Below, piece by piece: positions 15,044 to 43,443 of a DNA stretch of 49,599 bases (the first letter of the stretch is position 1; every line of letters starts with the position of its first letter). The stretch comes from Sphingomonadales bacterium (GTDB lineage Bacteria; Pseudomonadota; Alphaproteobacteria; Sphingomonadales; Sphingomonadaceae), in assembly GCA_038238995.1 (NCBI GenBank), contig JBBSFF010000001.1:1-49599 (forward strand), in the 5' to 3' direction. The position numbers and the translations under genes are program-made. Below the pieces are notes generated by a model. The model had not been told where the DNA came from. It saw only the letters and a program-made list of their open reading frames with translations, and made no database searches.

Positions 15044-15268
15044 TCACGCGGCGACGCGGCGGGGGAGAGGAGCGGCACGACCCATTTCGGCGGCGGCCTC
15101 GAGCCAGCACGCGATCGCATCATAGGTATTCGCCAGCGCCTCGGCGGGCGTCGCGCCGTCGGAGCGGCAACCGGGAAGCTCGGGCGCAACCCCGGTAAAG
15201 CCGCCGCCGTCGGCTTTGGCAAGCCGGATGATGTCGACCTCGTACGCCTTAAGCTGAGACATCATCAC
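15044..15268 (-). CDS. hicB: HicB family antitoxin-like protein (N-terminal domain only)
   Basis: DGGGF...PELPGC.SDGATPAEALAN..DAI..WLE.....GR..P.P; start may be 15262. Confidence 0.85.
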   Translation of the reverse strand: MMMSQLKAYEVDIIRLAKADGGGFTGVAPELPGCRSDGATPAEALANTYDAIACWLEAAAEMGRAAPLPRRVAA

Positions 15269-15618
15269 TTAAATACCGCTGCTTGGAGCACGCCAAACGT
15301 CTTGCTGTCTGTTGTTGCAAGTAGTTTCCTACCGTCCTTCAAAACACCGACGAAAGTAACTTCCTTCGATTTGCCTCCCAGGAGTAACCCCGCGAGCATT
15401 CCGACCGGGCCGAGCAACACGCTTCCGACCGCCCCCCAGCCGATGGTTCCAGATAGCTTTTTAACGGATTCCTCGTTGGCGATCTCAATCTCGGTAAATT
15501 GCTTCGGCTTTATCAGTTCCGGTTTCCATGCATCTTTAGTCGGGAACTGGTAGGAGCCGAACACCATTGGAACGGTGCATTTTCCCCAGTCTCCGGCATG
15601 AATACGCAGCTTACTCAC
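15265..15618 (-). CDS. Hypothetical protein with glycine-zipper-like TM hairpin, AT-rich codon usage
   Basis: 117-aa ORF, GTIGWGAVGSVLLGPVGMLAGLLLGG; GTG start overlaps the pntAa stop. Confidence 0.8.
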   Translation of the reverse strand: MSKLRIHAGDWGKCTVPMVFGSYQFPTKDAWKPELIKPKQFTEIEIANEESVKKLSGTIGWGAVGSVLLGPVGMLAGLLLGGKSKEVTFVGVLKDGRKLLATTDSKTFGVLQAAVFK

Positions 15619-20096: not shown

Positions 20097-20404
20097 GAAC
20101 TATCGCTCCCCCGCCTGCCACTTGGGTTTGCCGGGTGCCCCTGACGATGAATAGAGCTGAACGACTTCGATACGACGGATCGACCCCGCTTTACGACGAA
20201 GCGTCGCGGGTCCGGACCCGGTCAGCCCGTGCCCACATTCCGAGAGTGTCCTGAAAGCTTCATCGAAAACGGCACGATTTTCCTGGGTGCGACCGCGTGC
20301 GGCTTATTGACACCGAACCAAGTTGAGTTCATCGCAGCGTCAGTCTTGTGTTCAGGTTGGCAAAGCCCGGGCGCCTTGTCGGTTAACTTTGGGGGCTACA
20401 GCTC

Positions 20405-23400
20405 ATGTCTGTCGGTGTTTCGTTGCGCGTTCGCAATGCGTTGCTGCTCGGTTCGTCAGGCCTCGTCCTCGCAATGCAGGCGTCGGGTGCGGGCGCAGTC
20501 CCGGTCGTCTTCTACGACGGCGTTTCGACCATGCCGCTGGGCGCGGCCGCGACCACGGCGACGAGCACTGCAGGCGGTAACAATGCGCAGGCGACCCAGA
20601 CCGACACGACCGCGATCGGTGCCAATGCCAACGCGACTTCATCCGATTCCACCGCGTTCGGTTCGAACGCAAACGCAACCACCGGACCCAGTGCAACCGC
20701 GGTCGGTTCGTCGGCCTTCGCAACCGGCTTCCACGCGACCGCGATTGGTGCAGCGGCCGTTGCCTCGGGAACGAATACCGCTGCGTTCGGCTATCTGGCA
20801 CAGGCGCTCGGCAACGAAGGGACCGCGATCGGTAACAATACGGTTGTCGGCACGCTCGCGCAGGCGGCCACCGCGCTCGGTAACAGCGCGACGTTCACCA
20901 ATGCCGACAATACTTCGCTATCGACATCGGCGGTCAATGGCCTGACCTTCGGCGGGACCGCCGTCGCCCCTGTGCCATTCGACTCGACCAACAACCGCGG
21001 CGTCTCCTTCGGTGTTAGCGGCTCTGCGGCGTCACGGTTGCTCAATGTCGCCGCCGGTCGCATTACCTCGACTTCGACCGACGCCATCAATGGCGCCGAG
21101 CTCTACCAGGTTGCGACAACGTTACAGTCGAACATCACGTCCGGTGCAGGCGCGACCGCGAATGTGTCGACATCGCTGAGCAACGTTTCAATGTCGGTGA
21201 CCAACAACACCTCCTCGCTCGCCGCAGCTTCGATGTCGACGATGAACAACTCGAGTTCGATCGCAAATACGGCGATGTCGCTGACTAACGTATCGTCGTC
21301 GACCATGGGGAACTCGACCTCGATCGCCAACAACTCGACGTCGATCGCCGGTCTCGCCTCGTCCCTGAACAACGTGTCATCGTCAACCATGGGCAGTTCG
21401 ACCTCGATCGCCAACAGCTCGATGTCGATCGCCGGCCTCTCGTCGTCGTTGAATAATGTGTCGAGTTCGACCGCGAACAATTCAATGTCGATCGCGAACA
21501 GCTCGACTTCGATCGCCAACAACTCGACGTCGATCGCGAACACGACGAGCTCGCTGGGCAATGTGTCGACATCGACCGCGAACAACACTACATCGATCGC
21601 GAACAGTTCGATGTCGATCGCGGGTCTCGCGTCGTCGCTGAACAACGTGTCATCGTCGACCACGGGCAACTCGAGCTCGATCGCCGCGGGTTCGACCTCG
21701 ACCGCGAACAACTCGACGTCGATCGCCAATATCGCGACGTCGCTTGGCAATGTCTCGACATCGACCACGGCCAATTCGTCATCGACTGCCGCCAACTCGA
21801 TGTCGATTGCGGGTACTTCGTCGTCGACCGCTGCCAATTCGGCGTCGATCGCCGGTCTCGCGTCTTCCCTCACAAACGTGTCATCATCGACCGCGGCCAA
21901 CACGACGTCGATCGCCGGTCTGGCGTCGTCGCTGAACAACGTGTCGACGTCGACCGCAAACAATGCCATGTCGACCGCCAACAACTCGACGTCGATCGCC
22001 AACAACTCGACGTCGATCGCGAATGTCTCGGCTTCGCTCGCGAGCGTCATGACGTCGACCACCAACAACTCGGCGTCGATCGCCAACAACTCGGCGTCGA
22101 TCGCCGGGCTCGCATCGTCCCTGACTAACGTTTCGTCTTCGACGGCGAACAGTTCGACATCGATCGCCAACAATTCGACATCGATTGCGACCGTCGCCTC
22201 GTCGCTGACCAATGTGTCGTCGTCGACCGCGAACAATTCAATGTCGATCGCTGCCAACTCGACGTCGATCGCCAATGTGTCGACCTCCCTAGTGAGTGCG
22301 ACCACGTCGCTGACGGCGGCTGATACATCGCTCACGACACGGGTCAGCAGCTCGGAAGTGATCGTCGGTCAGAACGCGACGTCGCTGACGAATGCGTCGA
22401 ACTCGCTGACGACGCGGATCAGCAGCTCGGAAGTGGTCGTTAGCCAAAATGCGACGTCGCTTCAGGCGGCGTCGAACTCGCTGACCAACCGTGCGGTGGT
22501 CGACGAGGCGGTGATCACCGCGAACGGCGTGTCGCTGACCAACGCATCGAACTCGCTGTCGACGCGGGCATCGAACACCGAGGTCGCGCTGACCAATGCG
22601 TCGAATTCGCTTTCGACCCGGGCGACGACCGACGAGACGAGCCTGACGAACGCCTCGAACTCGTTGTCGACGCGCGCATCGACCACCGAGACCAACCTGA
22701 CCAACGCGTCGAATTCGCTGTCGACGCGCGCGACGGCCGACGAGACGAGCCTGACCAACGCGTCGAATTCGCTGACGACACGGATCTCGACGAGTGAAGT
22801 TAGGGTCACCGCGGTCAGCTCATCGGTAACTGCGGTCTCGTCATCGACCGCGACCAACACCGCGAACATCGCAGGTCTGACCAACGGAACGATCGGTGTC
22901 GTCGAGACGAACAACACCAGTGCCTATCCCTTCCCGACCGCGACCGGCCTCAATTCGCTGGCGATCGGGTACGGGTCGACTGGCAGCGGCGATGGATCGT
23001 TCGCGGCCGGTACCCAGGCGAGCGCCACCGGGTTCGAATCGACTGCGATCGGTCGCGGCGCGGTGGCCCAGGGCGGATCGGCAGTTTCGGTCGGCTCGCG
23101 TAACGTCGCCACCGGCAACGGTGCGGTCGCGATCGGTGATCCTAACGTCGCCACCGGCACCGGTGCGGTTGCGGTCGGTAACAGCAATACCGCCAACGGC
23201 CAGGGCGCGGTTGCCATCGGTAACCTGACCAACGCTGGCGGGCAGAGCTCGGTCGCGATCGGCGACTCGGCGAACGCCAGCCTGGTCGGGAACGTAGCGA
23301 TCGGCCAAAGCGCCATTACGACGGGAGCGCGCTCGGTCGCGATCGGTTCGGGTTCGACCGACGGTGGCCAGGCGGGCGTCTTCGCGGTCGGCGGCACGGC

Positions 23401-24115
23401 GGCGGGAACCCAACGCAAGGTCGTCAACGTCGCCCCAGGCACCATCGCCGCGGGGTCGACCGACGCGACCAACGGCGGTCAGTTCTTTACCTTCCAGACG
23501 TCGGTCGACACCCGGTTCGCGTCGATCGGGGTGGTCGGTCCGTTCGCCACGAACTCGGTGGCGGTCGGCGTCGGGTCGAATGCGGCGGCGAACGGCTCGG
23601 CCTTCGGGGTCAACGCCAATGCGTCCGGGGTCAGCTCGTTCGCCGGCGGGTATAATTCGGTCGCCGCCGGGACCAACTCGGTTGCACTCGGTGCCAGCTC
23701 GTCGGTCACCCCGGCTGGCGTCAACTCGGTCGCGATCGGTGCCGGGTCGGTTGCCAACACGCCCAACACAGTGTCGTTCGGAGCGCCGGGTGCCGAGCGT
23801 CGCCTGACGAACATCGCGCCGGGCATTCTGTCGACCGACGCGGCGACCCTCGGGCAGTTGAACTCGGTCCGTAACGACGAACGGCGTGCGCGCGGCGGTG
23901 TCGCGATGGCGCTCGCGGCAGCAACCGTCAACGTCCCGCTCGAGCCGGGCGAGATGGGTGTGGTCGGCGGCGTGGGCTACTTCCGCGGCGAGACCTCGCT
24001 TAACCTGAAGTATCAGGCACGCCCGGGCACGCAGTGGGTGCTCGGAGCGAGCGTGGGTGTCAGCACCCGCGCGGGCGATGTCGGTGCATCGGCGGGCGTC
24101 GGCTACAAGTGGTAG
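20405..24115 (+). CDS. Trimeric autotransporter adhesin (YadA-like) with long Ser/Thr/Asn-rich stalk
   Basis: Signal peptide; A(I/V)G..A.A head repeats; necks (NVAAG...STDAING, NVAPG...STDATNG, NIAPG..STDAATLGQL); anchor GGVAMALA...GVGYKW. Confidence 0.93.
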   Translation: MSVGVSLRVRNALLLGSSGLVLAMQASGAGAVPVVFYDGVSTMPLGAAATTATSTAGGNNAQATQTDTTAIGANANATSSDSTAFGSNANATTGPSATAVGSSAFATGFHATAIGAAAVASGTNTAAFGYLAQALGNEGTAIGNNTVVGTLAQAATALGNSATFTNADNTSLSTSAVNGLTFGGTAVAPVPFDSTNNRGVSFGVSGSAASRLLNVAAGRITSTSTDAINGAELYQVATTLQSNITSGAGATANVSTSLSNVSMSVTNNTSSLAAASMSTMNNSSSIANTAMSLTNVSSSTMGNSTSIANNSTSIAGLASSLNNVSSSTMGSSTSIANSSMSIAGLSSSLNNVSSSTANNSMSIANSSTSIANNSTSIANTTSSLGNVSTSTANNTTSIANSSMSIAGLASSLNNVSSSTTGNSSSIAAGSTSTANNSTSIANIATSLGNVSTSTTANSSSTAANSMSIAGTSSSTAANSASIAGLASSLTNVSSSTAANTTSIAGLASSLNNVSTSTANNAMSTANNSTSIANNSTSIANVSASLASVMTSTTNNSASIANNSASIAGLASSLTNVSSSTANSSTSIANNSTSIATVASSLTNVSSSTANNSMSIAANSTSIANVSTSLVSATTSLTAADTSLTTRVSSSEVIVGQNATSLTNASNSLTTRISSSEVVVSQNATSLQAASNSLTNRAVVDEAVITANGVSLTNASNSLSTRASNTEVALTNASNSLSTRATTDETSLTNASNSLSTRASTTETNLTNASNSLSTRATADETSLTNASNSLTTRISTSEVRVTAVSSSVTAVSSSTATNTANIAGLTNGTIGVVETNNTSAYPFPTATGLNSLAIGYGSTGSGDGSFAAGTQASATGFESTAIGRGAVAQGGSAVSVGSRNVATGNGAVAIGDPNVATGTGAVAVGNSNTANGQGAVAIGNLTNAGGQSSVAIGDSANASLVGNVAIGQSAITTGARSVAIGSGSTDGGQAGVFAVGGTAAGTQRKVVNVAPGTIAAGSTDATNGGQFFTFQTSVDTRFASIGVVGPFATNSVAVGVGSNAAANGSAFGVNANASGVSSFAGGYNSVAAGTNSVALGASSSVTPAGVNSVAIGAGSVANTPNTVSFGAPGAERRLTNIAPGILSTDAATLGQLNSVRNDERRARGGVAMALAAATVNVPLEPGEMGVVGGVGYFRGETSLNLKYQARPGTQWVLGASVGVSTRAGDVGASAGVGYKW
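21161..22300 (+). repeat. Intragenic 21-bp/7-aa heptad repeat array (NSTSIAN/LASSLNN/VSSSTAN)
   Basis: About 50 consecutive degenerate heptads visible in the translation and as recurring AACTCGACGTCGATCGCC in DNA. Confidence 0.9.
22328..22801 (+). repeat. Intragenic 75-bp (25-aa, x3) then 54-bp (18-aa, x5) repeats
   Basis: SLTTR.SSSEV...QNATSLTNASN units from 22328; SLTNASNSLSTRATTDET-type units 22532-22801. Confidence 0.88.
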
Positions 24116-24148
24116 CCCGCTCGATCGTCTGACCTTCGAAACCAAAGC

Positions 24149-24177
24149 AACGGCGCGTCAGATGATGACGCGCCGTT
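24149..24177 (+). terminator. 12-bp hairpin between the adhesin and downstream genes (weak terminator or mRNA stabiliser)
   Basis: AACGGCGCGTCA-GATGA-TGACGCGCCGTT; only a short U run follows. Confidence 0.6.
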
Positions 24178-24199
24178 TGCCGTTCGCTAGATAGAGCGC

Positions 24200-25312
24200 A
24201 TGAAGCTTCGCGTCGGCGTCACCTTCGGTCGAGCGAGCGACGACCCGACCGATCTGCTATGGTCGTCGGGCATCGGTCAGAATTGCGTTTTGCTCGTTCT
24301 GCTGCTCCAGCGCCTCGCCAGCATCTGTGAAGTCGTCGTAGTCGATTGCTCGGGTGCGCCCGCACCGCACCCGCTTGCAGCATGGTGTGGGATATCGACC
24401 GCGACCGCCGAGGAGGCTGCCGACCGGCTCGACCTGATCATCGAATGCGGGATGCGCGCTCCTGCCGACGCGATGCATCGATTTCGTGAACGCGGCGGGC
24501 GGCTGGTGTCGTACATGGCGGGCAATTCGATGGCGATGAACTTCGAGGCGCTGGCGAGTGCGATGCCGCACGGTGAAATCGTTTCCGCGGTGCCGTTCGA
24601 TGCGGTGTGGATCACCCCACAGCATTGGACGATGAACCGCGCGAGCTGCCTGCTGACCCGGTCCGATGTGGTCGAGCAAGTCCCTCACATCTGGGACCCG
24701 ATCTTCGTCGAGGCACGCGCCCGCGCGGCCGGACGCAATCCGTTCTATAAGGCCGACCGCGATACCGACGCGCTGCGTGTCGGTATCCTCGAGCCCAACG
24801 TCAATGTGCTCAAGACGTTTCATCTACCCCTCCTTGCCTGCGAGGAAGCCTTCCGGTTGGCGCCCGAATCGATCGACAATGTCCTGTTGTTCAACACCAG
24901 CTTGATCAAGCTCGTGCCGCACTTCCTCGAACTGACGAGCTCGCTCGACCTCTTCCGCGCCGGCAAACTCTTCGCCGAGGGGCGGATGCCGATCGCCGAG
25001 GTCCTCCACACCCACGTCGATGCGGTCGTTGTCCACCAATGGGAAAACGACCTCAACTACCTTTACTGGGACGTTCTGTGGAGCGGGCACCCGCTGATCC
25101 ACAACTCGCCATCGATCGAGGGGGTTGGCTACGCCTATGCCTCCTTCGACCCGGCCGATGGCGGGCGGGCGATCGTTGACGCGAGCCGTCGACATCGCGG
25201 GCGGGCGGCGGCGGCGCGCGCCGAGGCGATGGCGTTCCTCCACCGGTTCAGCATAGACTCGAGCGCAGTGCGTGCACGCCATGAAGAGTTGATCGCGGGA
25301 GTGATGGGATGA
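24200..25312 (+). CDS. DUF2827 family protein, copy 1 (putative GT-B glycosyltransferase)
   Basis: LRVGVT...LWSSGIGQN, EPNVNVLKT..P, HQWENDLNYLYWDVLWSGHPLIHNS; no signal peptide; family recognised from memory. Confidence 0.8.
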   Translation: MKLRVGVTFGRASDDPTDLLWSSGIGQNCVLLVLLLQRLASICEVVVVDCSGAPAPHPLAAWCGISTATAEEAADRLDLIIECGMRAPADAMHRFRERGGRLVSYMAGNSMAMNFEALASAMPHGEIVSAVPFDAVWITPQHWTMNRASCLLTRSDVVEQVPHIWDPIFVEARARAAGRNPFYKADRDTDALRVGILEPNVNVLKTFHLPLLACEEAFRLAPESIDNVLLFNTSLIKLVPHFLELTSSLDLFRAGKLFAEGRMPIAEVLHTHVDAVVVHQWENDLNYLYWDVLWSGHPLIHNSPSIEGVGYAYASFDPADGGRAIVDASRRHRGRAAAARAEAMAFLHRFSIDSSAVRARHEELIAGVMG

Positions 25313-25869
25313 AGGGCAGGGTGCGGGTCATGGCGGCGGCGGTCGCGCTGGCCGGGACCACGGTTCCCGCGGCGAGTGCGCCGCCGGTTCCCGGAGTGGC
25401 TGGCGGATTCCGCGCGAGCGGCGCCAGCGCGAATCAAAGACTTACCGCCGCGCTCGCGCAGATCCGGATGTCGACCTGCGCGTCGGTCTTTCAGCAGGCG
25501 GGGGCGTTCGTGTTCGAGACCGGCGAAGCAAACTTCACCGTCCAGCCGCTCGGCCCCGACGCGAACCGCTGGCCGACCGTCGTCACGATTGAAAGCAGCC
25601 ACCCGGCGACGGCGTCGACCAAGACGCCGCAGACCCGGCTAACGACGCTCGTCATCGCGCCGGCGGGGACATGTTCGGGACTCTATACTCAGGTCATCTA
25701 TTGGCCCGAAACGTGCGCCGCGTTGAAGGCGCGGGTGTTCACGGGCTTTGGCCCGGAGAAGCCGTTGCTCGCGCGCGTCATGCAGAGCGAGGCGAACCCG
25801 GGGTTGCAACTCTACCTCACCGCGGCGGGTCCGGGGTGCGTATCGGTCAAGAAAGAACTGATCGGGTGA
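25309..25869 (+). CDS. Exported hypothetical protein with 4 Cys
   Basis: Signal-peptide-like N-terminus; overlaps both neighbours by 4 bp (ATGA, GTGA). Confidence 0.8.
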   Translation: MKGRVRVMAAAVALAGTTVPAASAPPVPGVAGGFRASGASANQRLTAALAQIRMSTCASVFQQAGAFVFETGEANFTVQPLGPDANRWPTVVTIESSHPATASTKTPQTRLTTLVIAPAGTCSGLYTQVIYWPETCAALKARVFTGFGPEKPLLARVMQSEANPGLQLYLTAAGPGCVSVKKELIG

Positions 25870-27020
25870 GCGACCGGCGGGGGGACGGCGGGTACGTCAT
25901 CGGGATCACGATCTTCATCCAGAGCGACGGCGAGCTCGGCCTGTACGAGAATGGCCTGCGCCAGAACGTCCTGTTCCTGTACCAGATGTTCGCCGCCGCG
26001 CCGGGGTGTCGCCGCGTCCATTTGCTCAACCATGGCGACGGCGAGTTCACCGGCTGGCCGCCCGACCTCGGCATGGACGGGGTTCCGGTCGTCCGGACGG
26101 CGACGGTCGCCGACGATCTCGACGTCGTTATCATCCTCGGTGCGAGCATCGAGACCGCCGAACTCAAGGCGCTGCGCGAGCGCGGCATCCGCGTCATCGG
26201 TTACAAAGGCGGGAACGGCGCGGTGATCTCGCTCGAGGCGATCACCGCCAATCCGGTCCGGGCCGACGCCGAACGATATTTCGATCTCGATTGCTACGAT
26301 ATGCTGTGGATGACGCCGCAGCACCTCCACACTTATGCCGGCTGGTGTCGGACATTGTACCGCGTGCCCGTCGAGCCGATCCCGCAGATCTGGCGACCCA
26401 CCTTCATCGACCATCGCGCGAGCCACCTCGGCGACCGGTTCGGCTACCGGCCATCGGCGACCGGGTGGCGGGTCGGCATCATGGAGCCGAACATCACCGT
26501 GATGAAGACGAGTCACCTCGCGATGCTGGTGTGCGAGGCGGCGTGGCGGGCCGAGCCCGCGGCGGTGCGCGAGATATATGTTTCGAACACCGCCAAACAC
26601 CGCGAACAGCCGCATTTCCTCAGCTTCGCCAGCGCGTTGCGCGCCACCAAGGCGGGGGTGATGACGTTCGAGCCGCGCTTCGTTTCGGCAGATTTCCTGG
26701 CCAATTATTGCGACGCGGTGGTCACACATCATTGGCAGAACGGGCTCAACTACCTGTATTACGAGGTTCTCCACGGCGGCTATCCGCTGATCCACAACTC
26801 CGAATTCCTGCGCGACTACGGCTATTATTATCCGGATTTTGCTGCCGATGTCGGGGGCGAGGTGCTGCTTAAGGCGTTCCACAGCCACGATGCGAACCTC
26901 GATGCGTATCGGGCGACGAATGCCGAACTGCTCGCGCGACTGGCTCCGACGAATCCGGCGAATATCGCGCTCCACGAGCGATTGGTCGAGGCGGTCCTCG
27001 ACGCGCCAGCACGGCGCTGA
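25866..27020 (+). CDS. DUF2827 family protein, copy 2 (putative GT-B glycosyltransferase)
   Basis: IGITI...LYENGLRQN, EPNITVMKT, HHWQNGLNYLYYEVLHGGYPLIHNS; paralog of 24200-25312; GTG start reassigned to 25866. Confidence 0.8.
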   Translation: MSDRRGDGGYVIGITIFIQSDGELGLYENGLRQNVLFLYQMFAAAPGCRRVHLLNHGDGEFTGWPPDLGMDGVPVVRTATVADDLDVVIILGASIETAELKALRERGIRVIGYKGGNGAVISLEAITANPVRADAERYFDLDCYDMLWMTPQHLHTYAGWCRTLYRVPVEPIPQIWRPTFIDHRASHLGDRFGYRPSATGWRVGIMEPNITVMKTSHLAMLVCEAAWRAEPAAVREIYVSNTAKHREQPHFLSFASALRATKAGVMTFEPRFVSADFLANYCDAVVTHHWQNGLNYLYYEVLHGGYPLIHNSEFLRDYGYYYPDFAADVGGEVLLKAFHSHDANLDAYRATNAELLARLAPTNPANIALHERLVEAVLDAPARR

Positions 27021-27021
27021 C

Positions 27022-27519
27022 CTACTCCATGTGGTCGGGGGCGTAGCCCGGCGTCGGGACGATCGGCAGGACGGCGGCGAGGGCGGCGATCGCGATGAGC
27101 CAGCTGCCAGCGACCTTGAGCGCGATCCCGCGCCGGGTCGCGACGAGCCATACGGCTGGCAAACAAAGGGCAAGCAGCGGAGCGGCCTTGGCGATGTCGA
27201 GCGTCGTGCCTGCCACCGCGGTGGTCGCGCCCGCCCAGACCCCGGCATTGACCCCGAGCGCCAGCGCGATGCGATCGCCGATCCCGCGGCGTCGGTGGAT
27301 CGATGCAGCGGTGACGATGACGGACAGCCAGCAGCCGGTGAAGACATGATCGACCCAGCGCGGCGCGATCGGTGTCTGGGCGATAGCTGCGGCGGAAATC
27401 AATGCCATGACGATTGTGAGCAGTCGTGCCCCGCGCGGCGCATAGGCGAGCGCGAAGGCGAGCGCAGCGAACAGCAACGCCGGGGGCAGGACACCGCCCC
27501 TCAACGCAGCGCGGCCCAC
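27022..27519 (-). CDS. Hypothetical multi-TM membrane protein
   Basis: About 5 hydrophobic segments, C-terminal PGYAPDHME; overlaps the 3' end of hupE/ureJ. Confidence 0.75.
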   Translation of the reverse strand: MGRAALRGGVLPPALLFAALAFALAYAPRGARLLTIVMALISAAAIAQTPIAPRWVDHVFTGCWLSVIVTAASIHRRRGIGDRIALALGVNAGVWAGATTAVAGTTLDIAKAAPLLALCLPAVWLVATRRGIALKVAGSWLIAIAALAAVLPIVPTPGYAPDHME

Positions 27520-28157
27520 AGGAACCAGACGCCTGCAAGCATCACCAGCCCGCCCAAGCTCCTGGTGATGACCGCGCCGCCGGGACGGTCGTTGATCAGG
27601 CCGAGGCCGACGCCGACGACGTGAAGCATGCCCGTCGCCAGCACGAACCCCGCGCTATAGCCGACCGGATCGGCCGCAGAGGGCAATTCCTTGCCGTGCG
27701 CGTAGCCGTGGAAGATCGCGAACACCGCGACGATCAGCGACGCAAGCCAGACCGGCGCGCGAACCGCTCCGGCGATCATGCCGCCGAGGACGAGGACAGA
27801 CACCGCGATGCCGATCTCGACCGGTGGCATCGGCAGTCCGGCGATACCCAGTACGCCGCCGATCGCCATGACGGTCGGGAAGATCACCGGCAGGGCAACG
27901 ATCAGCGGTCGGCCAAGGAAGGCGCCCCACAGCCCGACCGACACCATCGCCAGCAAATGATCGAACCCGCTCAATGGGTGGAGAAAGCCCGATCCGAAGC
28001 CCCCAGCGAGACCCGTCCCACTGTGCGCGGCGGCGGGCGCAGCGATCGACACGATGCACGCGGCTGCGATGCAACGATGCGTCCACCCGAGGTGTTGACC
28101 GTAACTTGACGTGGCGGCATCGAAGCGGTCGGCCTTATCGGGATCACCCGCCAACAT
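27501..28157 (-). CDS. HupE/UreJ family Ni/Co transporter
   Basis: AAAH.G, GFLHPLSGFDHLLAMVSVGLW, FHGYAHG.E; start uncertain (nearest upstream in-frame ATG is 28157). Confidence 0.9.
   Translation of the reverse strand: MLAGDPDKADRFDAATSSYGQHLGWTHRCIAAACIVSIAAPAAAHSGTGLAGGFGSGFLHPLSGFDHLLAMVSVGLWGAFLGRPLIVALPVIFPTVMAIGGVLGIAGLPMPPVEIGIAVSVLVLGGMIAGAVRAPVWLASLIVAVFAIFHGYAHGKELPSAADPVGYSAGFVLATGMLHVVGVGLGLINDRPGGAVITRSLGGLVMLAGVWFLWAALR
28101..28124 (+). promoter_or_regulatory. Possible SigF/ECF16-type promoter of the DUF4198 gene
   Basis: GTAACT-N14-CGAA 31 bp before the ATG; spacer 2 nt shorter than at the sigF promoter. Confidence 0.4.
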
Positions 28158-28992
28158 GCGCAAACTTGCTCTCCTTATCGTCGCCAGCGCTTCGGCCGCG
28201 ACCGTCGCCGCGCATGATTTCTGGGTACAGCCGCAATCGTTCGCCGCCGCGGTCGATTCGCCGGTCCCGGTGACGATCGAGGTTGGCCACGGCACGCTTC
28301 GGCAGCGCTGGTCGGCGGCGCTTGACCGGATCGCCAAATTTGCCGCGGTCGGTCCGACGGGCTTGGTCGACCGACGCGCCGATCTGAAGCCGCCGACGGG
28401 TGGCGCGAGCGATGCCGAAATGCGCTTCGCCCAGCCCGCGACGTACATCATCGTGCTCGAAACAAATCGCGCCGAGAGCAATCTGCCAGCGCTGCGCTTC
28501 AACGACTATATCGCTGCCGAGGGAATTGCGCCGGCGATCGCCTTGCGGGCGCAGGCGGGAACGACAGATACCCCGGGGCGTGAACTCTATAGCCGACGGG
28601 CGAAGGCGCTGGTGCGGATCGGCGCGTCGCCCGAGCCGCAGCCGCAGGTAACCCGACCGGTCGGCATGACGCTCGAGATCGTGCCAAATCGCGATCCATA
28701 CGCGATGGGCGTGGATCAGTCGCTGCCGGTAACGGTCCTGTACAATGGTCATCCGCTCGCCGGTGCGTTCGTCAAGCTCAACAACCTCGATTTCGATGCG
28801 CGTCCGGTCGAAACCCATAAAACCGATGCCCGCGGGCAGGCGACCTTCACGATCCCTTTCCGCGGGCTCTGGCAGATGAACGTCGTCTGGACCAAGTCGT
28901 TAATCGGGAACCCGAAGGCGGACTTCGATACCGTATTTTCAAGCTTGACGTTCGGTTATTCGCGCCCGGGCACAACCCCCGTACGCGGATAA
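28156..28992 (+). CDS. DUF4198 family periplasmic protein (NikM/metal-uptake associated)
   Basis: Signal peptide ending AA|HDFW; LEIVP..DPY, VLYNG.PL.G, TDARG.A motifs. Confidence 0.85.
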   Translation: MRKLALLIVASASAATVAAHDFWVQPQSFAAAVDSPVPVTIEVGHGTLRQRWSAALDRIAKFAAVGPTGLVDRRADLKPPTGGASDAEMRFAQPATYIIVLETNRAESNLPALRFNDYIAAEGIAPAIALRAQAGTTDTPGRELYSRRAKALVRIGASPEPQPQVTRPVGMTLEIVPNRDPYAMGVDQSLPVTVLYNGHPLAGAFVKLNNLDFDARPVETHKTDARGQATFTIPFRGLWQMNVVWTKSLIGNPKADFDTVFSSLTFGYSRPGTTPVRG

Positions 28993-28999
28993 CAGTGCG

Positions 29000-29245
29000 T
29001 CAGAGCGGAATCGGCTTCGTCGTCAAACTGAGCGGGGCCAGATCGGGACATGGTACCGGGTCCGTCGCCTTGGTATTAGGCGCGGCCCGGAAGCGCGTCC
29101 CGAAGCAGCCGCCGAACTGATCCTCGGTCTTCGTCACCGGAGTGACGACAGGGGGCGCGGCCGCTTGCCCATTGTTGTTGTTGCCGCACGCGGCCAACCC
29201 GGCGAGGATCGACAGCGTGAAGAACGAGCGCAAGTTCTTGTTCAT
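29000..29245 (-). CDS. Small lipoprotein
   Basis: Lipobox LAAC; GGGGG RBS directly after the DUF4331 stop. Confidence 0.85.
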   Translation of the reverse strand: MNKNLRSFFTLSILAGLAACGNNNNGQAAAPPVVTPVTKTEDQFGGCFGTRFRAAPNTKATDPVPCPDLAPLSLTTKPIPL

Positions 29246-29257
29246 CGTCTGCCCCCC

Positions 29258-30865
29258 TTACGGCTGCGTCTGCGGACGCGGCGAGCCGCGGAGCGGAGGG
29301 TTCAAGTAAGGGAAAGTGTTCAAGATGTTCGTCGCGCTGCTCGGCGCACCATCGGTGTACGCCGCCATACCGGTCGACGCGTCGGCGGGGGCACACAGGC
29401 CAAGATTGGTCTGTACGCCGGCAACCGGTATTGGATAGCATAGCCGCCCCATCGCGACTCGCAGGACAATGTCGACCGTATCGTCACCCGGACGACGTCC
29501 ATTCGGGAAGCCGGCGAGATCGTTGCCGACAACCCCGAAGGTGCTCTGAGTTGCCTGCGGGGTGGGGGCGACCGCAGTGTTGAGCCGCAACATCTCCGAC
29601 GCGACAGGCGCGGTCGCCCCCGCCGGTGCCTTCAGTTGGTTGACACCGGTGAAACCAGTGAGAAACGTTGCGACAAGGTCGTTGCGCGGGAAGTTGGTCG
29701 GGGCGATCGACCCCGACCCACCGATGACACCGCGAACTGGCGTGCGGAACAGCGCATCGAGTATCGCCGGGAACGTCGGGTTGGTGACATAATCGATCAG
29801 CGCAGCGTCGCCCTTCGGCTCGGCGGCGTTAAACAGGTCCTTGTCCTTGATGCCGATGACAAGCTCGTTGACGAGCGGCATACCGAGGCGCGAGACCTGT
29901 ACATATGCGCCACCCTGCAGCGTCGCCTGGTTGAACGACGGCGTGGTCCGCAGCAGGCGCGCCTGTGGCAAGCTGGCGGTCGACCAGACACCGATGACAC
30001 CGTTGCCGGTTCCGACGAGGCACGCCTTCGGAATTTCCATGGCGATGGTCGTGACGTTTTTCTTGCCGATCAGCTCCTGGTTAGCCTGGTCCTGGACGAT
30101 ACCGCCGGGGAAAGCGGTGCCGTTGCCGTAGATCGGATTCAAATCGCCCTCGACAGGAACGAAATTGACGAGGTCGAACACCGGACCGAGGTTGACAGCG
30201 AAATATTCGGCGCGGCTACCGACAAAAACCTTCGCCGGGGTCGCGCAACCGGGGATCGTTGCCCCATAAATAAATGTGTTGGCGTACGCCGCATAGCCGC
30301 CCGGGAAGGTTTTGTTCCCGACATTTTCCAACGGCTTATAGAAGGTAGTCGTGCCAACCGGCGTCACCGTGGCGCGGGTGCCGAGGCGACGGTCGCCGGT
30401 GATTTGGGTAACCGTGTATGTCTCGTTCTCGCCGAGGTTGGGATCGGCTGCGCGAGCGACTGGGCCGATCGCACGCAGCGGGATCGACAGGTTCTTCCCG
30501 CCGACATTAAGCTGGATGCCGACATCAGCGGTCAAGGCGTTCGTGAACTTAAACTGATAAGTCAGGTTCTCGACCGCGTCGCCGTCATTGTCGACGTGAA
30601 TTTCGTAAATCGCGTCGGGGTCCATCGTGTAATAGTTCGGACCGCTGCCAGGATCTTCGGCGGGCTGGAAATTGGCCATCAGGGTAACGAAATCTTGACG
30701 ACCCGGCTCGTAGCTCGTGAAAGCGTACGTATCGGTATTGTCGACCTTTGGCATCTTAGTGATGTTAGGAGCCTCGCGGTGGCTCGACGCCATTGCGGGG
30801 GACGTCCCGATAGCCATCAGCGCCGCGCACGCCGTTCCGGTAATCAGCCGATTTCGAATCGTCAC
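29258..30865 (-). CDS. DUF4331 family exported protein
   Basis: Signal peptide then ASSHREAP; D.TDTYAF, QVSRLGMPLVNE, GFPNGRRPGDDTVDI, FPYL. Confidence 0.9.
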   Translation of the reverse strand: MTIRNRLITGTACAALMAIGTSPAMASSHREAPNITKMPKVDNTDTYAFTSYEPGRQDFVTLMANFQPAEDPGSGPNYYTMDPDAIYEIHVDNDGDAVENLTYQFKFTNALTADVGIQLNVGGKNLSIPLRAIGPVARAADPNLGENETYTVTQITGDRRLGTRATVTPVGTTTFYKPLENVGNKTFPGGYAAYANTFIYGATIPGCATPAKVFVGSRAEYFAVNLGPVFDLVNFVPVEGDLNPIYGNGTAFPGGIVQDQANQELIGKKNVTTIAMEIPKACLVGTGNGVIGVWSTASLPQARLLRTTPSFNQATLQGGAYVQVSRLGMPLVNELVIGIKDKDLFNAAEPKGDAALIDYVTNPTFPAILDALFRTPVRGVIGGSGSIAPTNFPRNDLVATFLTGFTGVNQLKAPAGATAPVASEMLRLNTAVAPTPQATQSTFGVVGNDLAGFPNGRRPGDDTVDIVLRVAMGRLCYPIPVAGVQTNLGLCAPADASTGMAAYTDGAPSSATNILNTFPYLNPPLRGSPRPQTQP

Positions 30866-32291: not shown

Positions 32292-32850
32292 CGTCGCGTC
32301 CTTCGATCGGTTCGGCGGCGAGGCGCTTGGCGAGGCGCGCGAGGCCACGGTGGATATTGACTTTGACGAGGCTTGCCGACTGGCCGGTCCGCGCCGCCGT
32401 TTCCTCGATGCTCAGGCCCGATAGCTTGACGAGGCGGATGACCTCGGCCTGCGCCGGTTTAAGCTCGCCGAGCAGCGCGGTCAGGACCGTCGCGCTCGTC
32501 ACCGCCGCTTCGTGGTCGCCGACCGACAGGTCGTCGGGAAGTTCGTCGGCGGCGGTTCGCTTCATCGCGCGCAGCCGGTCGATCCACTTGTACCGCGCGA
32601 TCGCCGCGAGCCACGGGCCGAACGGGCGATCGGGATCGTAGGTGTGCCGCTTGGTGTGCAGCGCGATCATCGCCTCCTGCACCGCGTCGTCGACCGAGGG
32701 CGGCGGCAGGCGGCGCGCGTAATAACGCAGCAGCCACGGACGGACTTCGGCGAGCAGCCGCCGGTACGCGCCGCCGTTACCGGCCTGCGCCGCCAGCATG
32801 AGCGACCCCCATTCTTCCACACGCGACTCCCGCCGGACGAAACCGACCAT
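32281..32850 (-). CDS. sigF: ECF sigma factor, SigF/ECF16 group
   Basis: LMLAAQAG....YR.LL, DDAVQE, HTYDP.RPF.PWL..IARYK.ID, VKVNIHRGL; alternative start 32910. Confidence 0.9.
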   Translation of the reverse strand: MVGFVRRESRVEEWGSLMLAAQAGNGGAYRRLLAEVRPWLLRYYARRLPPPSVDDAVQEAMIALHTKRHTYDPDRPFGPWLAAIARYKWIDRLRAMKRTAADELPDDLSVGDHEAAVTSATVLTALLGELKPAQAEVIRLVKLSGLSIEETAARTGQSASLVKVNIHRGLARLAKRLAAEPIEGRDDGE

Positions 32851-32919
32851 AGTTGGCGCCAGACCGTACGCAAAGGCACGGGCCACGCCCGAGGCAGCAG
32901 GTGCGGGCATGTGCGCTTG

Positions 32920-32945
32920 TTCGTGTGGCGCGGGCCGATGGTTAC
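32920..32945 (-). promoter_or_regulatory. SigF autoregulatory promoter
   Basis: Exact GTAACC-N16-CGAA, the Caulobacter SigF consensus as I recall it. Confidence 0.8.
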
Positions 32946-32974
32946 AGCGGTGGCAAAGCGTGCGACGAAGCGGG

Positions 32975-33718
32975 GTGATCGCGCTGCCGCCCCCGTTGTT
33001 CGCCGTCGCCTTCGGCACCGTCGGCGCGGTCGTCGGCAGCTTCGTCGCGCTGGTTGCGGTGCGGCTCCCCGCCGGGCGGCCGATCGCGCTGGCCCGGTCG
33101 GCGTGCGCGGCGTGTGGCGCGATGCTCGGACCGATCGAGCTCGTCCCGCTCGTCAGCTTCGCGGTCCAACGCGGGCGGTGTCGCAGTTGTCGCGCGGCGA
33201 TAGCTTGGCGCGATCCGGCAACGGAAGCGGCGGGAGCGGCGATCGGGGTGGTCGCGGCGTTGGCGATCGCCGATCTGCGGATGGCGGGAGCAGTCGCGGC
33301 CCTCGGCTGGGCGCTCCTGCTGCTCGCGCGGCTCGACGCCGAGCATTTTTGGCTGCCGTCGGCGGTGACGCTGCCGCTCGTCGCCGCCGGGCTCGGCGTG
33401 ACATCGTGGCTCGCGCCCGGCGACCTTGTCGATCATGTGATCGGCGCGGTGGTGGGATATCTCAGCCTCACCGGAGTCGCGGCGGCGTACAAGGTGCTGC
33501 GTGGACGAGTGGGGCTCGGCGGCGGCGACGCCAAATTGTTCGCCGCGAGCGGCGCGTGGCTCGGCTGGGCGGCGCTGCCGGTCGTCCTGCTCGCGGCGGC
33601 GCTGTCGGGGATTGTCGTCGCGCTGCTGCTGTGGCGGCGCGGGATCACCGCGACAACCCGCCTGCCGTTCGGAGTTTTCCTCGCGGCGGCGACGTGGATC
33701 GTCGCGGTCGCGGGCTAA
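32975..33718 (+). CDS. gspO: Prepilin peptidase/N-methyltransferase
   Basis: VGSF, RSAC..C, RGRCRSC, LDAE..WLP, GLGGGDAKL, LPFG.FL; GTG start proposed. Confidence 0.93.
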   Translation: MIALPPPLFAVAFGTVGAVVGSFVALVAVRLPAGRPIALARSACAACGAMLGPIELVPLVSFAVQRGRCRSCRAAIAWRDPATEAAGAAIGVVAALAIADLRMAGAVAALGWALLLLARLDAEHFWLPSAVTLPLVAAGLGVTSWLAPGDLVDHVIGAVVGYLSLTGVAAAYKVLRGRVGLGGGDAKLFAASGAWLGWAALPVVLLAAALSGIVVALLLWRRGITATTRLPFGVFLAAATWIVAVAG

Positions 33719-33900
33719 GGCGATTGGCGCTGTCCTACATCCTGTCGGACCTGCCATAAGGGCTTTGAAGGGCGGAGCGCGATCGGGTTGTAGAAAAGGA
33801 AGCCGACTCGTTGAGCAGCAATATTACTGAGAGTTGGGAATTGGCGCAATAACAGGCATGCTCTTCGTGTGAAAGTTGCGAACTTAGCCTTACCAATTCG

Positions 33901-34704
33901 TTAATTCAGGCCTTCTCCGATCGAACGCGCGATCGTCGCGACGACCGGTGTCCGGCCACCCCGCCGCTCGAGCAGGCTGGTCAGCGTCTGCGTCGTTCCG
34001 CCCATCGTCACCGTCGTCGTCACCACATAATGGTCCGAAGTGTACCCCGCTCCCGCCGCCAGCCGCAGCCCGGTCGCAGCGAAGTCGGCGGGGGTCAGCA
34101 GTCCGGCGCGGTCGCGGCGATCGCCGAGGATCCGACCCCCGACGGGGTCGCCGACCAGCACCGCGAGAAGTTCTGGAGCAGCGACGTTGACGTTGACGTC
34201 GGCGCGTCCCGGCAACGCGGTAACGAGCGAGCGCAGCTTGGCGATCGTTTCGGGGTCGATCTCGGCGCGGCTCAGCTGCGCGAGGTCGGAGACCCGGCCG
34301 CGCTCGGCGATCGACTTGGCGATCCGGCTGGCGATATCGGGGTCGAGCCGCAGCGCTGTCGTGATCGCTGCGAGCACCGGCTCGCCCGCCCCGGCCGCGT
34401 CGTTGACATTGAACCGCCCCTGCGCGTCGGCAATCGTCAGGGTGAAGGTGCCGCCTTCGATCGGCGTTTGCGCCTGCGCGACCTTCGCCCACGCTTCGGT
34501 GCGGTTGTCGGTACCGGGCGCGGCGATCATGTCGCGGCGGAGCGCGGCGATCGCCGACAACTCACCACCGCGCGCGACGCTCAGAGCCTGGGCCGCCTCG
34601 CGCAGCCGGATCGCGCGGTCGAGCGCGGGGTCCTGGGTGCCGAGCATCAGCATCACCGCCGCGACCGCGACCGCGACCATCGCGAGGACGTTGAGCAGGA
34701 TCAC
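33901..34704 (-). CDS. gspK: T2SS minor pseudopilin K
   Basis: Hydrophobic N-terminus, D...EAW, I.DAQGRFNVN, VNVN.A..ELL; GTG overlaps the gspJ stop. Confidence 0.85.
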   Translation of the reverse strand: MILLNVLAMVAVAVAAVMLMLGTQDPALDRAIRLREAAQALSVARGGELSAIAALRRDMIAAPGTDNRTEAWAKVAQAQTPIEGGTFTLTIADAQGRFNVNDAAGAGEPVLAAITTALRLDPDIASRIAKSIAERGRVSDLAQLSRAEIDPETIAKLRSLVTALPGRADVNVNVAAPELLAVLVGDPVGGRILGDRRDRAGLLTPADFAATGLRLAAGAGYTSDHYVVTTTVTMGGTTQTLTSLLERRGGRTPVVATIARSIGEGLN

Positions 34705-36921: not shown

Positions 36922-36926
36922 CCCGT

Positions 36927-38141: not shown

Positions 38142-38153
38142 CAGTTCGCGGCC

Positions 38154-40192: not shown

Positions 40193-40194
40193 TC

Positions 40195-41289: not shown

Positions 41290-41359
41290 TCCGGCCCAGT
41301 TCGGTCGTTTACTATCGGCAGGTCGATAGCGTTTGGCTTCGTCCATTCTATAAGACGGT

Positions 41360-43438: not shown

Positions 43439-43443
43439 GAGGC

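What the first reader, a model, noticed from the sequence alone, without database searches (positions are those of the whole stretch)
20405..27020. Candidate undescribed adhesin-glycosylation system: sequon-saturated trimeric autotransporter plus two DUF2827 enzymes and an exported helper
Seen: four co-oriented genes, the last three joined by 4-bp overlaps. The adhesin stalk is about 550 aa of mostly Ser/Thr/Asn/Ala with more than 50 N-X-S/T sequons by hand count. The two ~375-aa paralogs lack signal peptides and end in D-A-V-V-x-H-x-W-(E/Q)-N-x-L-N-Y-L-Y-x-(D/E)-V-L-x-x-G-x-P-L-I-H-N-S, which resembles the nucleotide-sugar-binding segment of GT-B/GT4 enzymes. Known: HMW1C, Aah/TibC and GtfA/GtfB are cytoplasmic glycosyltransferases encoded next to their adhesin substrates; DUF2827 is, to my knowledge, uncharacterised. 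Inference: these proteins glycosylate the adhesin stalk before Sec export, which would define a new protein-glycosylation module for type Vc adhesins.
Basis: partly seen in the sequence, partly recalled or inferred. Interest (0 to 1): 0.88.

Follow-up and report, generated by a model that had tools for sequence, protein, structure and literature searches.

The report
Serine-rich adhesin with glycosyltransferase pair
A soil bacterium keeps the gene for a long surface adhesin packed with serine and threonine next to two enzymes predicted to have a sugar-transferase fold, which likely sugar-coat those serines rather than its asparagines; a 2026 preprint already proposed the enzyme-adhesin link and it remains untested.

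Summary
The four-gene locus is real: a trimeric autotransporter, DUF2827-A, an exported protein, DUF2827-B. The DUF2827-B model is GT-B (pLDDT 90.6; Z 24.6 to the GT4 enzyme BshA). It is not undescribed: bioRxiv 10.64898/2026.01.22.700529 already names DUF2827 as potential glycosyltransferases beside trimeric autotransporters, untested, and this scan noted the pairing 21 times on other DNA. The sequon argument fails: the stalk's heptad pattern explains the sequons (45 seen, 43.8 expected), and DUF2827-linked adhesins are no richer in sequons than controls (p 0.15-0.21). What tracks the enzymes is Ser/Thr: best 150-residue window at least 40% S+T in 39 of 43 linked adhesins, 0 of 60 adhesins from DUF2827-negative genomes, also within this genus. 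O-glycosylation of Ser/Thr is therefore the likelier chemistry. A and B are old subfamilies kept together even when the operon splits. The exported protein also follows adhesins in DUF2827-negative rhizobia, behind IalB, so it is adhesin-linked, not glycosylation-specific. No activity is shown.

The parts
20405..24115 (+). Trimeric autotransporter adhesin, 1236 aa (P0001): likely Sec signal peptide (about aa 1-31, by eye), N-terminal head/neck, Ser/Thr-rich stalk, second head cluster, YadA anchor
   Evidence: Pfam YadA_head (8 stretches) and YadA_stalk (3); YadA_anchor; only ORF of 739 scanned in the genome with a 150-aa window at or above 40% S+T
21173..22327 (+). 55 unbroken heptads (aa 257-641), predicted trimeric coiled coil: Ser at g in 55 of 55, S/T at e in 44 and at f in 42, Asn at c in 34 and at d in 21; 122 Ser; 45 sequons (31 at c, 14 at d). 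Likely acceptor region
   Evidence: register assigned by eye from I/L/T and V/N spacing
22328..22894 (+). Second stalk repeat (aa 642-830, about 18-residue TSLTNASNSL-type units), 10 sequons, at chance level
   Evidence: 10 seen, 9.1 expected for aa 641-830
23942..24112 (+). YadA-type membrane anchor
   Evidence: PF03895 E 1.3e-7, over cut-off
24149..24177 (.). 12-pair GC-rich hairpin between adhesin and DUF2827-A; possible mRNA stabiliser or partial terminator (inferred)
   Evidence: 84-nt spacer z -3.2; 2 of 200 shuffles as stable; terminator-like sites overall are at chance level (4 seen, 4.5 expected)
24200..25312 (+). DUF2827 subfamily A, 370 aa (P0002), predicted cytoplasmic GT-B enzyme
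   Evidence: PF10933 E 3e-86; 32% to P0004; clade support 1.0; keeps the family's invariant residues; not folded itself
25309..25869 (+). Exported protein, 186 aa (P0003), no Pfam family, four invariant Cys, alpha+beta fold without a clear structural match; homologues flank adhesins with and without DUF2827
25866..27020 (+). DUF2827 subfamily B, 384 aa from GTG (P0004), predicted cytoplasmic GT-B enzyme; similarity to relatives' DNA stops at this stop codon, marking the unit's end
   Evidence: PF10933 E 3e-108; AF2 pLDDT 90.6; Z 24.6, rmsd 4.0 over 326 aa to BshA; DNA matches end at query 8457-8477 in 6 of 7 carriers
26712..26801 (+). Predicted nucleotide-sugar-binding motif of P0004 (aa 283-312): N292-x7-E300 in the place of the GT4 E-x7-E motif; the same motif in P0002 lies at 25019-25108
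   Evidence: gap-free match to GT4 motifs printed; D/E at 300 in 261 of 261 bacterial and 99 of 99 viral rows, H310 near-invariant

Best explanation
The two DUF2827 proteins are predicted GT-B glycosyltransferases that likely attach sugars, in the cytoplasm and before Sec export, to serine (and threonine) hydroxyls of the adhesin's 55-heptad stalk. Shown: operon, fold of B, conserved diphosphate/ribose-binding positions in both, and the coupling of DUF2827 to Ser/Thr-rich stalks. Inferred: the donor is a housekeeping NDP-sugar (no sugar-pathway gene in the unit); A and B do different jobs, most likely priming and extension, or a two-subunit enzyme; the acceptors are the Ser/Thr at heptad positions e, f and g; the sugars keep the almost uncharged stalk soluble and protease-resistant during export and form a hydrated coat on the finished fibre. 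The exported 186-aa protein likely works in the periplasm on adhesin folding or export, independent of the sugar step.
For: GT-B fold: AF2 pLDDT 90.6, pTM 0.89; top structural matches are retaining GT4-type enzymes (BshA Z 24.6, rmsd 4.0, 326 aa; Foldseek E 1e-9); the Ser-O-GlcNAc transferases SdgB (Z 18.2-19.5) and GtfA (Z 17.6) are in the same lists. Polar active-site-like residues are conserved over 360 sequences in both paralogues (Q33, N34, E124, N209, K214, R271, H288, N295, D/E300, H310). Of 11 long representatives scanned, 9 join DUF2827 to another glycosyltransferase domain (8 over the Pfam cut-off), 1 to a methyltransferase, 1 is a triple DUF2827. Adhesin within 2.5 kb in 58 of 80 genome loci; 13 contigs too short, 9 without. 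Ser/Thr coupling: 39 of 43 linked adhesins (this one included) against 0 of 60 control adhesins from 40 DUF2827-negative genomes reach 40% S+T in a 150-aa window; medians 0.53 and 0.27. It holds within Sphingomonadales and Burkholderiaceae and within this genus: linked 0.41-0.47 with 11-14% Ser (5 adhesins), unlinked 0.25-0.31 with 5-6% Ser (5 adhesins). In G358 the DUF2827-adjacent adhesin is a Ser-repeat protein, 7 others reach at most 0.33. Orphan DUF2827 triplets come with Ser/Thr-rich adhesins elsewhere (G253: 2 of 6; G766: 3 of 6), and in G765, whose one detected adhesin scores 0.21, the third DUF2827 gene is broken. Linked stalks use several unlike repeats. A and B form separate clades (support 1.0 each) with both present in each of the 21 such loci in the tree; G762 and G763 keep both although B lies elsewhere.
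Against: No experiment, no RNA or protein data. The fold does not name the acceptor: the best matches act on small molecules and lipids. DUF2827 has only the two Rossmann domains and none of the extra acceptor-binding domains of GtfA-type enzymes (DUF1975; PMC5796085 passage). Asn replaces both the Arg and the first Glu of the GT4 motifs, so catalysis may differ or be absent. Profile comparisons with GT4, GT41 and NGT sets were all weak (probability at most 6%). 4 of 43 linked adhesins fall under the threshold, which was chosen after seeing the data; related genomes are not independent and the 80 loci are the closest of 704. Only 18 of 79 viral DUF2827 loci have an equally Ser/Thr-rich ORF within 8 kb. 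In this stalk Asn at c goes with S/T at e (31 of 34 against 13 of 21, p 0.014; p 0.68 over the 39 distinct heptads), so N-linked sites are not excluded. Heavy modification at e and g, which flank the core, could hinder trimer folding (own reasoning).
Confidence: 0.6

Rival explanations
1. One reading: one or both enzymes N-glycosylate the N-X-S/T sequons in the cytoplasm, as HMW1C/NGT do, alone or besides O-linked sugar.
For: 57 sequons in the stalk, 31 with Asn at the exposed c position; sequon observed/expected 1.57 here and about 2 in four betaproteobacterial adhesins; no GT41, STT3 or HMW1C_N gene found in this 87.6%-complete genome to serve them; the DUF2827 profile is marginally closer to GT41 than to GT4 in local alignment (P 0.006 against 0.037); OGT-like structures score Z 19.2-19.3.
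Against: Heptad-preserving shuffles give the same count. Family-wide sequon density (1.97 against 1.67 per 100 aa, p 0.21) and observed/expected (1.05 against 1.15, p 0.15) do not differ from controls; 13 of 43 linked adhesins are sequon-poor (below 0.8), one almost free of them. Unlinked adhesins of this genus have observed/expected 0.98-1.61. Motif spacing is GT4-like, not GT41-like, and an NGT set gave no profile match.
Confidence: 0.13
2. The pair builds a glycan on a lipid or other carrier that a separate periplasmic oligosaccharyltransferase moves onto the adhesin, or modifies another surface glycan used with the adhesin.
For: Closest solved folds include lipid-, LPS- and small-molecule GT4 enzymes; fusions to GT2, GT25, GT32, GT9 fit glycan chain building; orphan clusters exist away from adhesins.
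Against: No flippase, initiating transferase or oligosaccharyltransferase gene in the unit or seen in the related loci inspected; STT3 not found with a control that rang; Wzy_C_2 not found but its control did not ring. The tight tie to the Ser content of one protein is more simply explained by direct transfer.
Confidence: 0.1
3. One or both proteins are not sugar transferases: a GT-B-fold chaperone for the unfolded low-complexity stalk (as GtfB is), an epimerase, or a transferase of a non-sugar group.
For: Arg and first Glu of the GT4 motifs are Asn; GT-B also covers UDP-GlcNAc 2-epimerase (Z 16.0); GtfB is a non-catalytic partner in the streptococcal system (PMC5796085 passage).
Against: Both paralogues keep the Lys and the acidic ribose-binding position, and a large set of invariant polar residues; single-copy and multi-GT-fusion forms exist; epimerase scores 8 Z units below the GT4 matches.
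Confidence: 0.12
4. The linkage is incidental co-transfer on a mobile cassette and the enzymes have no bearing on the adhesin.
For: Patchy spread: 4 of 401 genomes of the phylum, 3 of 301 of the order, 7 of 20 others in the genus.
Against: Ser/Thr-rich adhesins were found only in DUF2827-bearing genomes, also when unlinked; gene order recurs across three orders; DUF2827 genes appear broken where the adhesin is reduced or absent (G765, G783).
Confidence: 0.04

Closest known systems
DUF2827 genes next to trimeric autotransporter genes (Dorison et al., bioRxiv 10.64898/2026.01.22.700529; abstract, section 6 and passages read)
   Same: Same Pfam family, next to a trimeric autotransporter, in two or three copies, cytoplasmic, proposed as potential glycosyltransferases of the adhesin.
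   Different: The preprint places them in Burkholderia, Veillonellales and Pasteurellales; its main text has no occurrence of 'sphingomon', 'caulobacter', 'serine', 'threonine', 'sequon' or 'O-linked' (supplements closed). The alphaproteobacterial A-helper-B layout, the Ser/Thr coupling and the A/B subfamilies are not in the text read. No experiment there either.
GtfA/GtfB with serine-rich repeat proteins; SdgA/SdgB with Ser-Asp repeat proteins (GT4)
   Same: Two related cytoplasmic GT-B proteins encoded with a Ser-rich surface adhesin; GT4-like fold and motif spacing; the G358 adhesin has SRRP-like Ser-Ala repeats.
   Different: No DUF1975 domain (370-384 aa against about 500), both copies look catalytic, Asn in place of Arg and Glu, substrate a Gram-negative type Vc coiled coil, no SecA2/SecY2 genes in the unit.
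[quoted passage not shown]
   Same: Cytoplasmic glycosylation of a type V adhesin, GT-B fold, sequon-rich substrate in this one case.
   Different: No HMW1C_N or Glyco_transf_41 domain, about 270 aa shorter than the NGT frames seen (629-713 aa open frames), motif spacing differs, no profile match to four NGT sequences, sequons not enriched across the family.
Aah/TibC autotransporter heptosyltransferases (PMC4358343, search listing only)
   Same: Dedicated cytoplasmic enzyme hyperglycosylating an autotransporter encoded beside it; serine acceptor (recalled).
   Different: Different family, acts on monomeric type Va beta-helix passengers with ADP-heptose (recalled); not among the top 50 structural matches (inconclusive).
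Serine-rich SLST-repeat trimeric autotransporters of Burkholderia (PMC3417366, PMC7142374; passages read)
   Same: Ser/Thr-rich repeat stalks, suggested in print to be O-glycosylated; such adhesins sit beside DUF2827 in the loci fetched.
   Different: Those papers name no enzyme; the repeat here is SIANNST/SLNNVSS rather than SLST and is far richer in Asn.
Adhesin helpers TpgA, SadB, and the IalB-associated small exported protein (preprint section 6)
   Same: Small exported protein encoded in the adhesin operon; homologues of P0003 directly follow IalB after the adhesin in rhizobia, which fits the preprint's unnamed protein.
   Different: No Pfam match to BamE/OmpA, SadB or IalB; no solved-fold match (best Z 5.9); identity with the preprint's protein could not be checked (supplements closed).

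Membership tests
DUF2827 (PF10933) | Match to the Pfam model over its cut-off, full length | tested here: met
   289.9 and 362.5 bits against cut-off 25, profile 1-360 of 362
Trimeric autotransporter adhesin (type Vc) | C-terminal YadA anchor plus head and stalk/neck domains | tested here: met
   PF05658, PF05662; PF03895 33.2 bits over cut-off 22.7
Trimeric autotransporter adhesin (type Vc) | Signal peptide and surface display as a trimer | not testable with these tools
   N-terminus looks like a Sec signal by eye; no predictor or expression data
GT-B fold glycosyltransferases | Two Rossmann-like domains superposing on solved GT-B enzymes | tested here: met
   P0004 model: Z 24.6, rmsd 4.0, 326 aligned to BshA; 50 listed matches all GT-B. 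P0002 by 32% identity only
GT-B fold glycosyltransferases | Sugar transfer from an NDP-sugar | not testable with these tools
   needs an assay
GT4 (Glycos_transf_1, GtfA/SdgB/BshA) | E-x7-E motif and G-R-x4-K loop; Pfam PF00534 match | tested here: not met
   spacing kept but N292-x7-D/E300 and N209-x4-K214; no PF00534 hit; works like GT4 by fold, not a member by sequence
GtfA/GtfB system | DUF1975 domain in both enzymes; one non-catalytic partner; SecA2/Y2 export | tested here: not met
   no DUF1975 hit, model has two domains only, both paralogues keep conserved residues, no such export genes among the flanking ORFs scanned
HMW1C/NGT (GT41) | HMW1C_N and Glyco_transf_41 domains | tested here: not met
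   no hit in either protein; family searches of the genome empty (PF18071 rang in 4 of 9 Pasteurellaceae-type genomes)
HMW1C/NGT (GT41) | Substrates selected for N-X-S/T sequons | tested here: inconclusive
   not enriched family-wide; enriched here but explained by heptad make-up
Aah/TibC heptosyltransferases | Sequence or fold identity with TibC; iron-binding motif; dodecamer | tested here: inconclusive
   no PDB sequence match for P0004 or its alignment; TibC not among the listed structural matches, which does not exclude it; oligomer not tested
General oligosaccharyltransferase pathways (PglB, PglL) | STT3 or Wzy_C-type transferase in the genome; D/E-x-N-x-S/T sites | tested here: inconclusive
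   STT3 not found, control rang; Wzy_C_2 not found, control silent; genome 87.6% complete; 1 extended sequon in aa 241-830
Known adhesin helpers (TpgA, SadB, IalB) | Pfam or fold match for P0003 | tested here: inconclusive
   no Pfam/NCBIfam family, no clear fold match, Atlas neighbours of a homologue unnamed

The most novel reading that the evidence does not exclude
DUF2827 is an unclassified family of protein O-glycosyltransferases that works without an accessory acceptor domain and with an Asn-substituted GT4-like active site; a two-subfamily pair hyperglycosylates hundreds of serines per adhesin trimer, and owning it is what lets a bacterium build Ser-saturated, nearly uncharged coiled-coil stalks. 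The exported partner is a third, widespread helper of trimeric autotransporter biogenesis besides TpgA and SadB.
Probability: 0.3. Interest if true: 0.72.

Novelty: new variant of a known kind. Interest (0 to 1): 0.46.

Why it matters
If right, it gives a function to an uncharacterised glycosyltransferase family found in bacteria and viruses (1317 representatives at 50% identity), names the missing enzyme for the O-glycosylation long suspected on serine-rich trimeric adhesins, and supplies a compact, harmless environmental test set (two soluble enzymes, one regular heptad acceptor) that can be rebuilt in E. coli. The comparative result changes the experiment: look at Ser/Thr first, not Asn. 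The idea of the link is already in a preprint, so the gain is a sharper, testable prediction rather than a discovery.

Tried and rejected
Sequence searches of solved structures with P0004 and alignment A1: nothing below E 0.02. Profile-profile comparison of DUF2827 with GT41 (24, then 13 sequences), GT4 (26, then 25) and NGT (4): probability at most 6.2%, so no family assignment; the first GT4 run was spoiled by a multi-domain first row and was redone. Fold searches for the exported protein: no match (best Z 5.9; Foldseek E 0.03). A complex prediction for A with B could not be run (tool not available), so whether they bind is open. Campos et al. 2013, cited by the preprint for the structural argument, is not held; it may already discuss these genes, and bioRxiv supplements were closed. 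Literature searches: 'DUF2827' 2 papers (the second lists it in a table under 'uronic acid pathway' without support in the passage seen), 'PF10933' 0, five further term sets found no test of DUF2827; most subscription papers are not searched. Sequencing runs: no RNA holder listed. Promoter scan: no plus-strand sigma-70 site. Plain residue shuffling as proof of sequon selection: rejected because it ignores the heptad. Helper as glycosylation-specific: rejected (6 of 60 control adhesins and loci L136-L139, L144-L146 have it without DUF2827 nearby). G764 has a DUF2827 triplet and no adhesin found, in a 2.8-Mb assembly: unexplained, possibly incomplete. Rows dropped: from the linked set, adhesins under 450 aa or without an anchor hit inside the locus; from the 150 listed anchor matches, 60 control and 16 within-genome adhesins were picked by hand for length and spread; L387 (only a 215-aa anchor ORF found) was left out of the genus comparison; four of the five genus-linked adhesins are the same records as L025-L027 and L031.


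Full report
Observation. The window holds four plus-strand genes at the stated coordinates: a 1236-aa trimeric autotransporter (20405-24115), a 370-aa and a 384-aa DUF2827 protein (24200-25312; 25866-27020, GTG start) and between them a 186-aa protein with a signal-like N-terminus (25309-25869). The last three overlap by four bases twice. The nearest named relatives of the 384-aa protein are from Polymorphobacter (86-88%), so the host is most likely a sphingomonad of that group. Contigs of two public runs from one study cover the whole stretch with almost no differences. In the genus, 7 of 20 other genomes carry the enzyme-helper-enzyme DNA, and in 6 of these the similarity stops at the last stop codon, which marks the end of the unit. 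The family is rare: 4 of 401 genomes of the phylum and 3 of 301 of the order.

The adhesin. Pfam finds YadA head, stalk and anchor. Residues 257-641 are 55 unbroken heptads with Ser at position g in all 55, Ser/Thr at e in 44 and at f in 42, Asn at c in 34 and at d in 21; residues 241-640 contain one charged and no aromatic residue. At the usual rise per residue this would be a coiled coil of about 57 nm (own calculation). It is the only one of 739 ORFs scanned in the genome with a 150-residue window of 40% or more Ser+Thr.

Sequons. The count is right (57 in aa 241-830) and beats plain shuffles (36.7 +/- 4.3; 0 of 2000), but Asn followed by Ser/Thr three places on is as frequent (61), and shuffling within heptad positions gives 43.8 +/- 2.3 against 45 seen in the 55 heptads. 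That null cannot exclude that the position preferences were themselves selected for sequons; the direct test of c with e is significant over all heptads (p 0.014) and not over the 39 distinct ones (p 0.68). The comparative test is clearer. I took the 80 closest of 704 confirmed genome loci, found an adhesin within 2.5 kb in 58 (57 plus L047; 13 contigs too short, 9 without), and compared 43 linked adhesins of at least 450 aa, this one included, with 60 adhesins picked by hand from 40 genomes that had no DUF2827 match. Sequon density (median 1.97 against 1.67 per 100 aa, p 0.21) and observed/expected (1.05 against 1.15, p 0.15) do not differ; 13 of the 43 are sequon-poor. Ser+Thr in the best window separates the sets almost fully: medians 0.53 and 0.27; 39 of 43 against 0 of 60 at 0.40, a threshold chosen after looking. 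The p values overstate, since kin are not independent, but the split repeats inside Sphingomonadales and Burkholderiaceae and inside this genus, where five linked adhesins have 11-14% Ser and five unlinked ones 5-6% with similar Thr and similar sequon ratios. In G358 the adhesin beside DUF2827 is a Ser-Ala repeat protein and seven others are ordinary. Where DUF2827 triplets stand alone, Ser/Thr-rich adhesins turn up elsewhere (G253, G766); in G765 the one adhesin found is ordinary and the third DUF2827 gene is broken; in G764 no adhesin was found. Against a universal rule, only 18 of 79 viral loci have so rich an ORF within 8 kb.

The enzymes. AlphaFold2 on a 69-sequence alignment gives a confident two-Rossmann model of the 384-aa protein (pLDDT 90.6). 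All 50 listed structural matches are GT-B, led by retaining GT4-type enzymes (BshA Z 24.6, rmsd 4.0 over 326 residues), with OGT-like proteins at 19.2-19.3, SdgB 18.2-19.5 and GtfA 17.6. D or E at 300 is invariant in 360 aligned sequences, K214, N209, N295, H310 nearly so, in both paralogues. Profile comparisons were too weak to assign a family, and neither protein hits a GT Pfam family. Long forms fuse DUF2827 to GT2, GT25, GT32, GT9, a PLOD-type GT or a methyltransferase. In a tree of 108 domains from 48 loci, the two window proteins fall in separate clades (support 1.0 each, sisters at 0.92) and each locus with a B copy also has an A copy; G762 and G763 keep A beside the adhesin and B elsewhere. 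This argues for two distinct, needed functions. Whether A and B bind could not be tested.

The exported protein. It has 161 homologues in the first search, four invariant cysteines, a confident model (pLDDT 88.3) and no clear fold match. An iterated profile finds it in 52 of the 80 DUF2827 loci, but also after 6 of 60 control adhesins in DUF2827-negative genomes and beside adhesins in metagenome loci without DUF2827. In three rhizobial cases scanned the gene between adhesin and homologue is IalB, which fits the preprint's remark on a small signal-peptide protein accompanying IalB. It is best read as an adhesin-biogenesis factor; that is an inference.

Mechanism. Most likely (0.6) the adhesin is made in the cytoplasm, A and B add sugars from housekeeping NDP-sugars to stalk Ser/Thr while it is unfolded, it passes Sec, meets the helper in the periplasm and is displayed through its anchor. 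Operon, fold, motif conservation and Ser/Thr coupling are shown; activity, donor, acceptor residue, order of A and B and the helper's job are inferred. N-glycosylation of the sequons (0.13), a chaperone or non-sugar role (0.12), glycan assembly for another transferase (0.10) and chance linkage (0.04) are the rivals. No GT41, STT3, HMW1C_N or Wzy_C_2 gene was found in the 87.6%-complete genome (the last control did not ring).

What is known. bioRxiv 10.64898/2026.01.22.700529 (abstract, section 6 and passages read) reports 327 DUF2827 homologues beside trimeric autotransporters, mainly in Burkholderia, Veillonellales and Pasteurellales, and proposes glycosyltransferase function without testing it. 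PMC3417366 and PMC7142374 (passages) describe serine-rich Burkholderia adhesins and suggest O-glycosylation without naming an enzyme. PMC5796085 (passages) summarises HMW1C-type N-glycosylation of Knh and EmaA and the GtfA/GtfB system. Campos et al. 2013 could not be read, and the preprint's supplements were closed; both may hold more. My searches found no experimental test of DUF2827. Earlier notes of this scan list 21 findings on the pairing, one with the same four-gene set in another genome; I treated them as leads and tested the claims myself.

Verdict. A real, well-bounded adhesin operon with a predicted dedicated glycosyltransferase pair. It works like GtfA/GtfB or TibC but belongs to neither family. 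The link is already proposed in print; what this analysis adds is the alphaproteobacterial A-helper-B form, the finding that Ser/Thr and not sequons track the enzymes, the paired subfamilies, and the separation of the helper from the sugar step. New variant of a known kind; interest 0.46.

Noticed in passing
L015:8541-9791 (G358): A 416-aa gene directly after DUF2827 in the Ser-repeat adhesin operon has no Pfam or PDB sequence match; its N-terminus looks GT-A-like by eye (recalled pattern), a candidate chain-extending enzyme.
   Followed up: partly
L013:15068-15682 and L023:4105-4677: DUF4019 genes sit inside or just upstream of DUF2827-adhesin clusters in G075 and G513, a second uncharacterised partner family; G075 also has an OmpA-domain lipoprotein gene after the adhesin.
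   Followed up: no
L011, L071, L080, L086, L091, L098 (Collimonas-type): DUF2827 triplet plus the exported helper and a MORN-repeat gene form a cassette away from any adhesin, while Ser/Thr-rich adhesins lie elsewhere in the two genomes checked: suggests action in trans on several adhesins.
   Followed up: partly
L386 (G783) and G765:C6:122119-122957: DUF2827 genes are broken where the adhesin is reduced to an anchor-sized ORF or absent from the locus; could be decay after loss of the substrate or assembly error.
   Followed up: partly
L252-L254, L258, L282, L283: Adhesin-IalB-helper order in DUF2827-negative rhizobia (five loci by inspection, IalB confirmed by Pfam in three); in L258 the helper follows the adhesin without IalB.
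   Followed up: partly
L147-L225 (viral contigs): 237 viral relatives of DUF2827, some loci with 2-4 copies; the closest predicted viral structure is from Pyramimonas orientalis virus (E 4e-20).
   Followed up: partly
window 27022-30865: Downstream block of a 165-aa membrane protein, HupE/UreJ, DUF4198 and DUF4331 genes is conserved in the genus separately from the adhesin unit.
   Followed up: no
window 32798-45561: Type II secretion gene cluster (prepilin peptidase, GspF, GspE, GspM-like, secretin) about 6 kb downstream; no evidence of a link to the adhesin.
   Followed up: no
window 15265-15618: 117-aa ORF without Pfam match between the transhydrogenase genes, in a stretch of slightly lower GC.
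   Followed up: no
window 20357-20368: One run's contig differs from the window by two substitutions and a 1-base insertion about 40 bases upstream of the adhesin start, while the other run agrees: possible strain variation in the promoter or leader.
   Followed up: no
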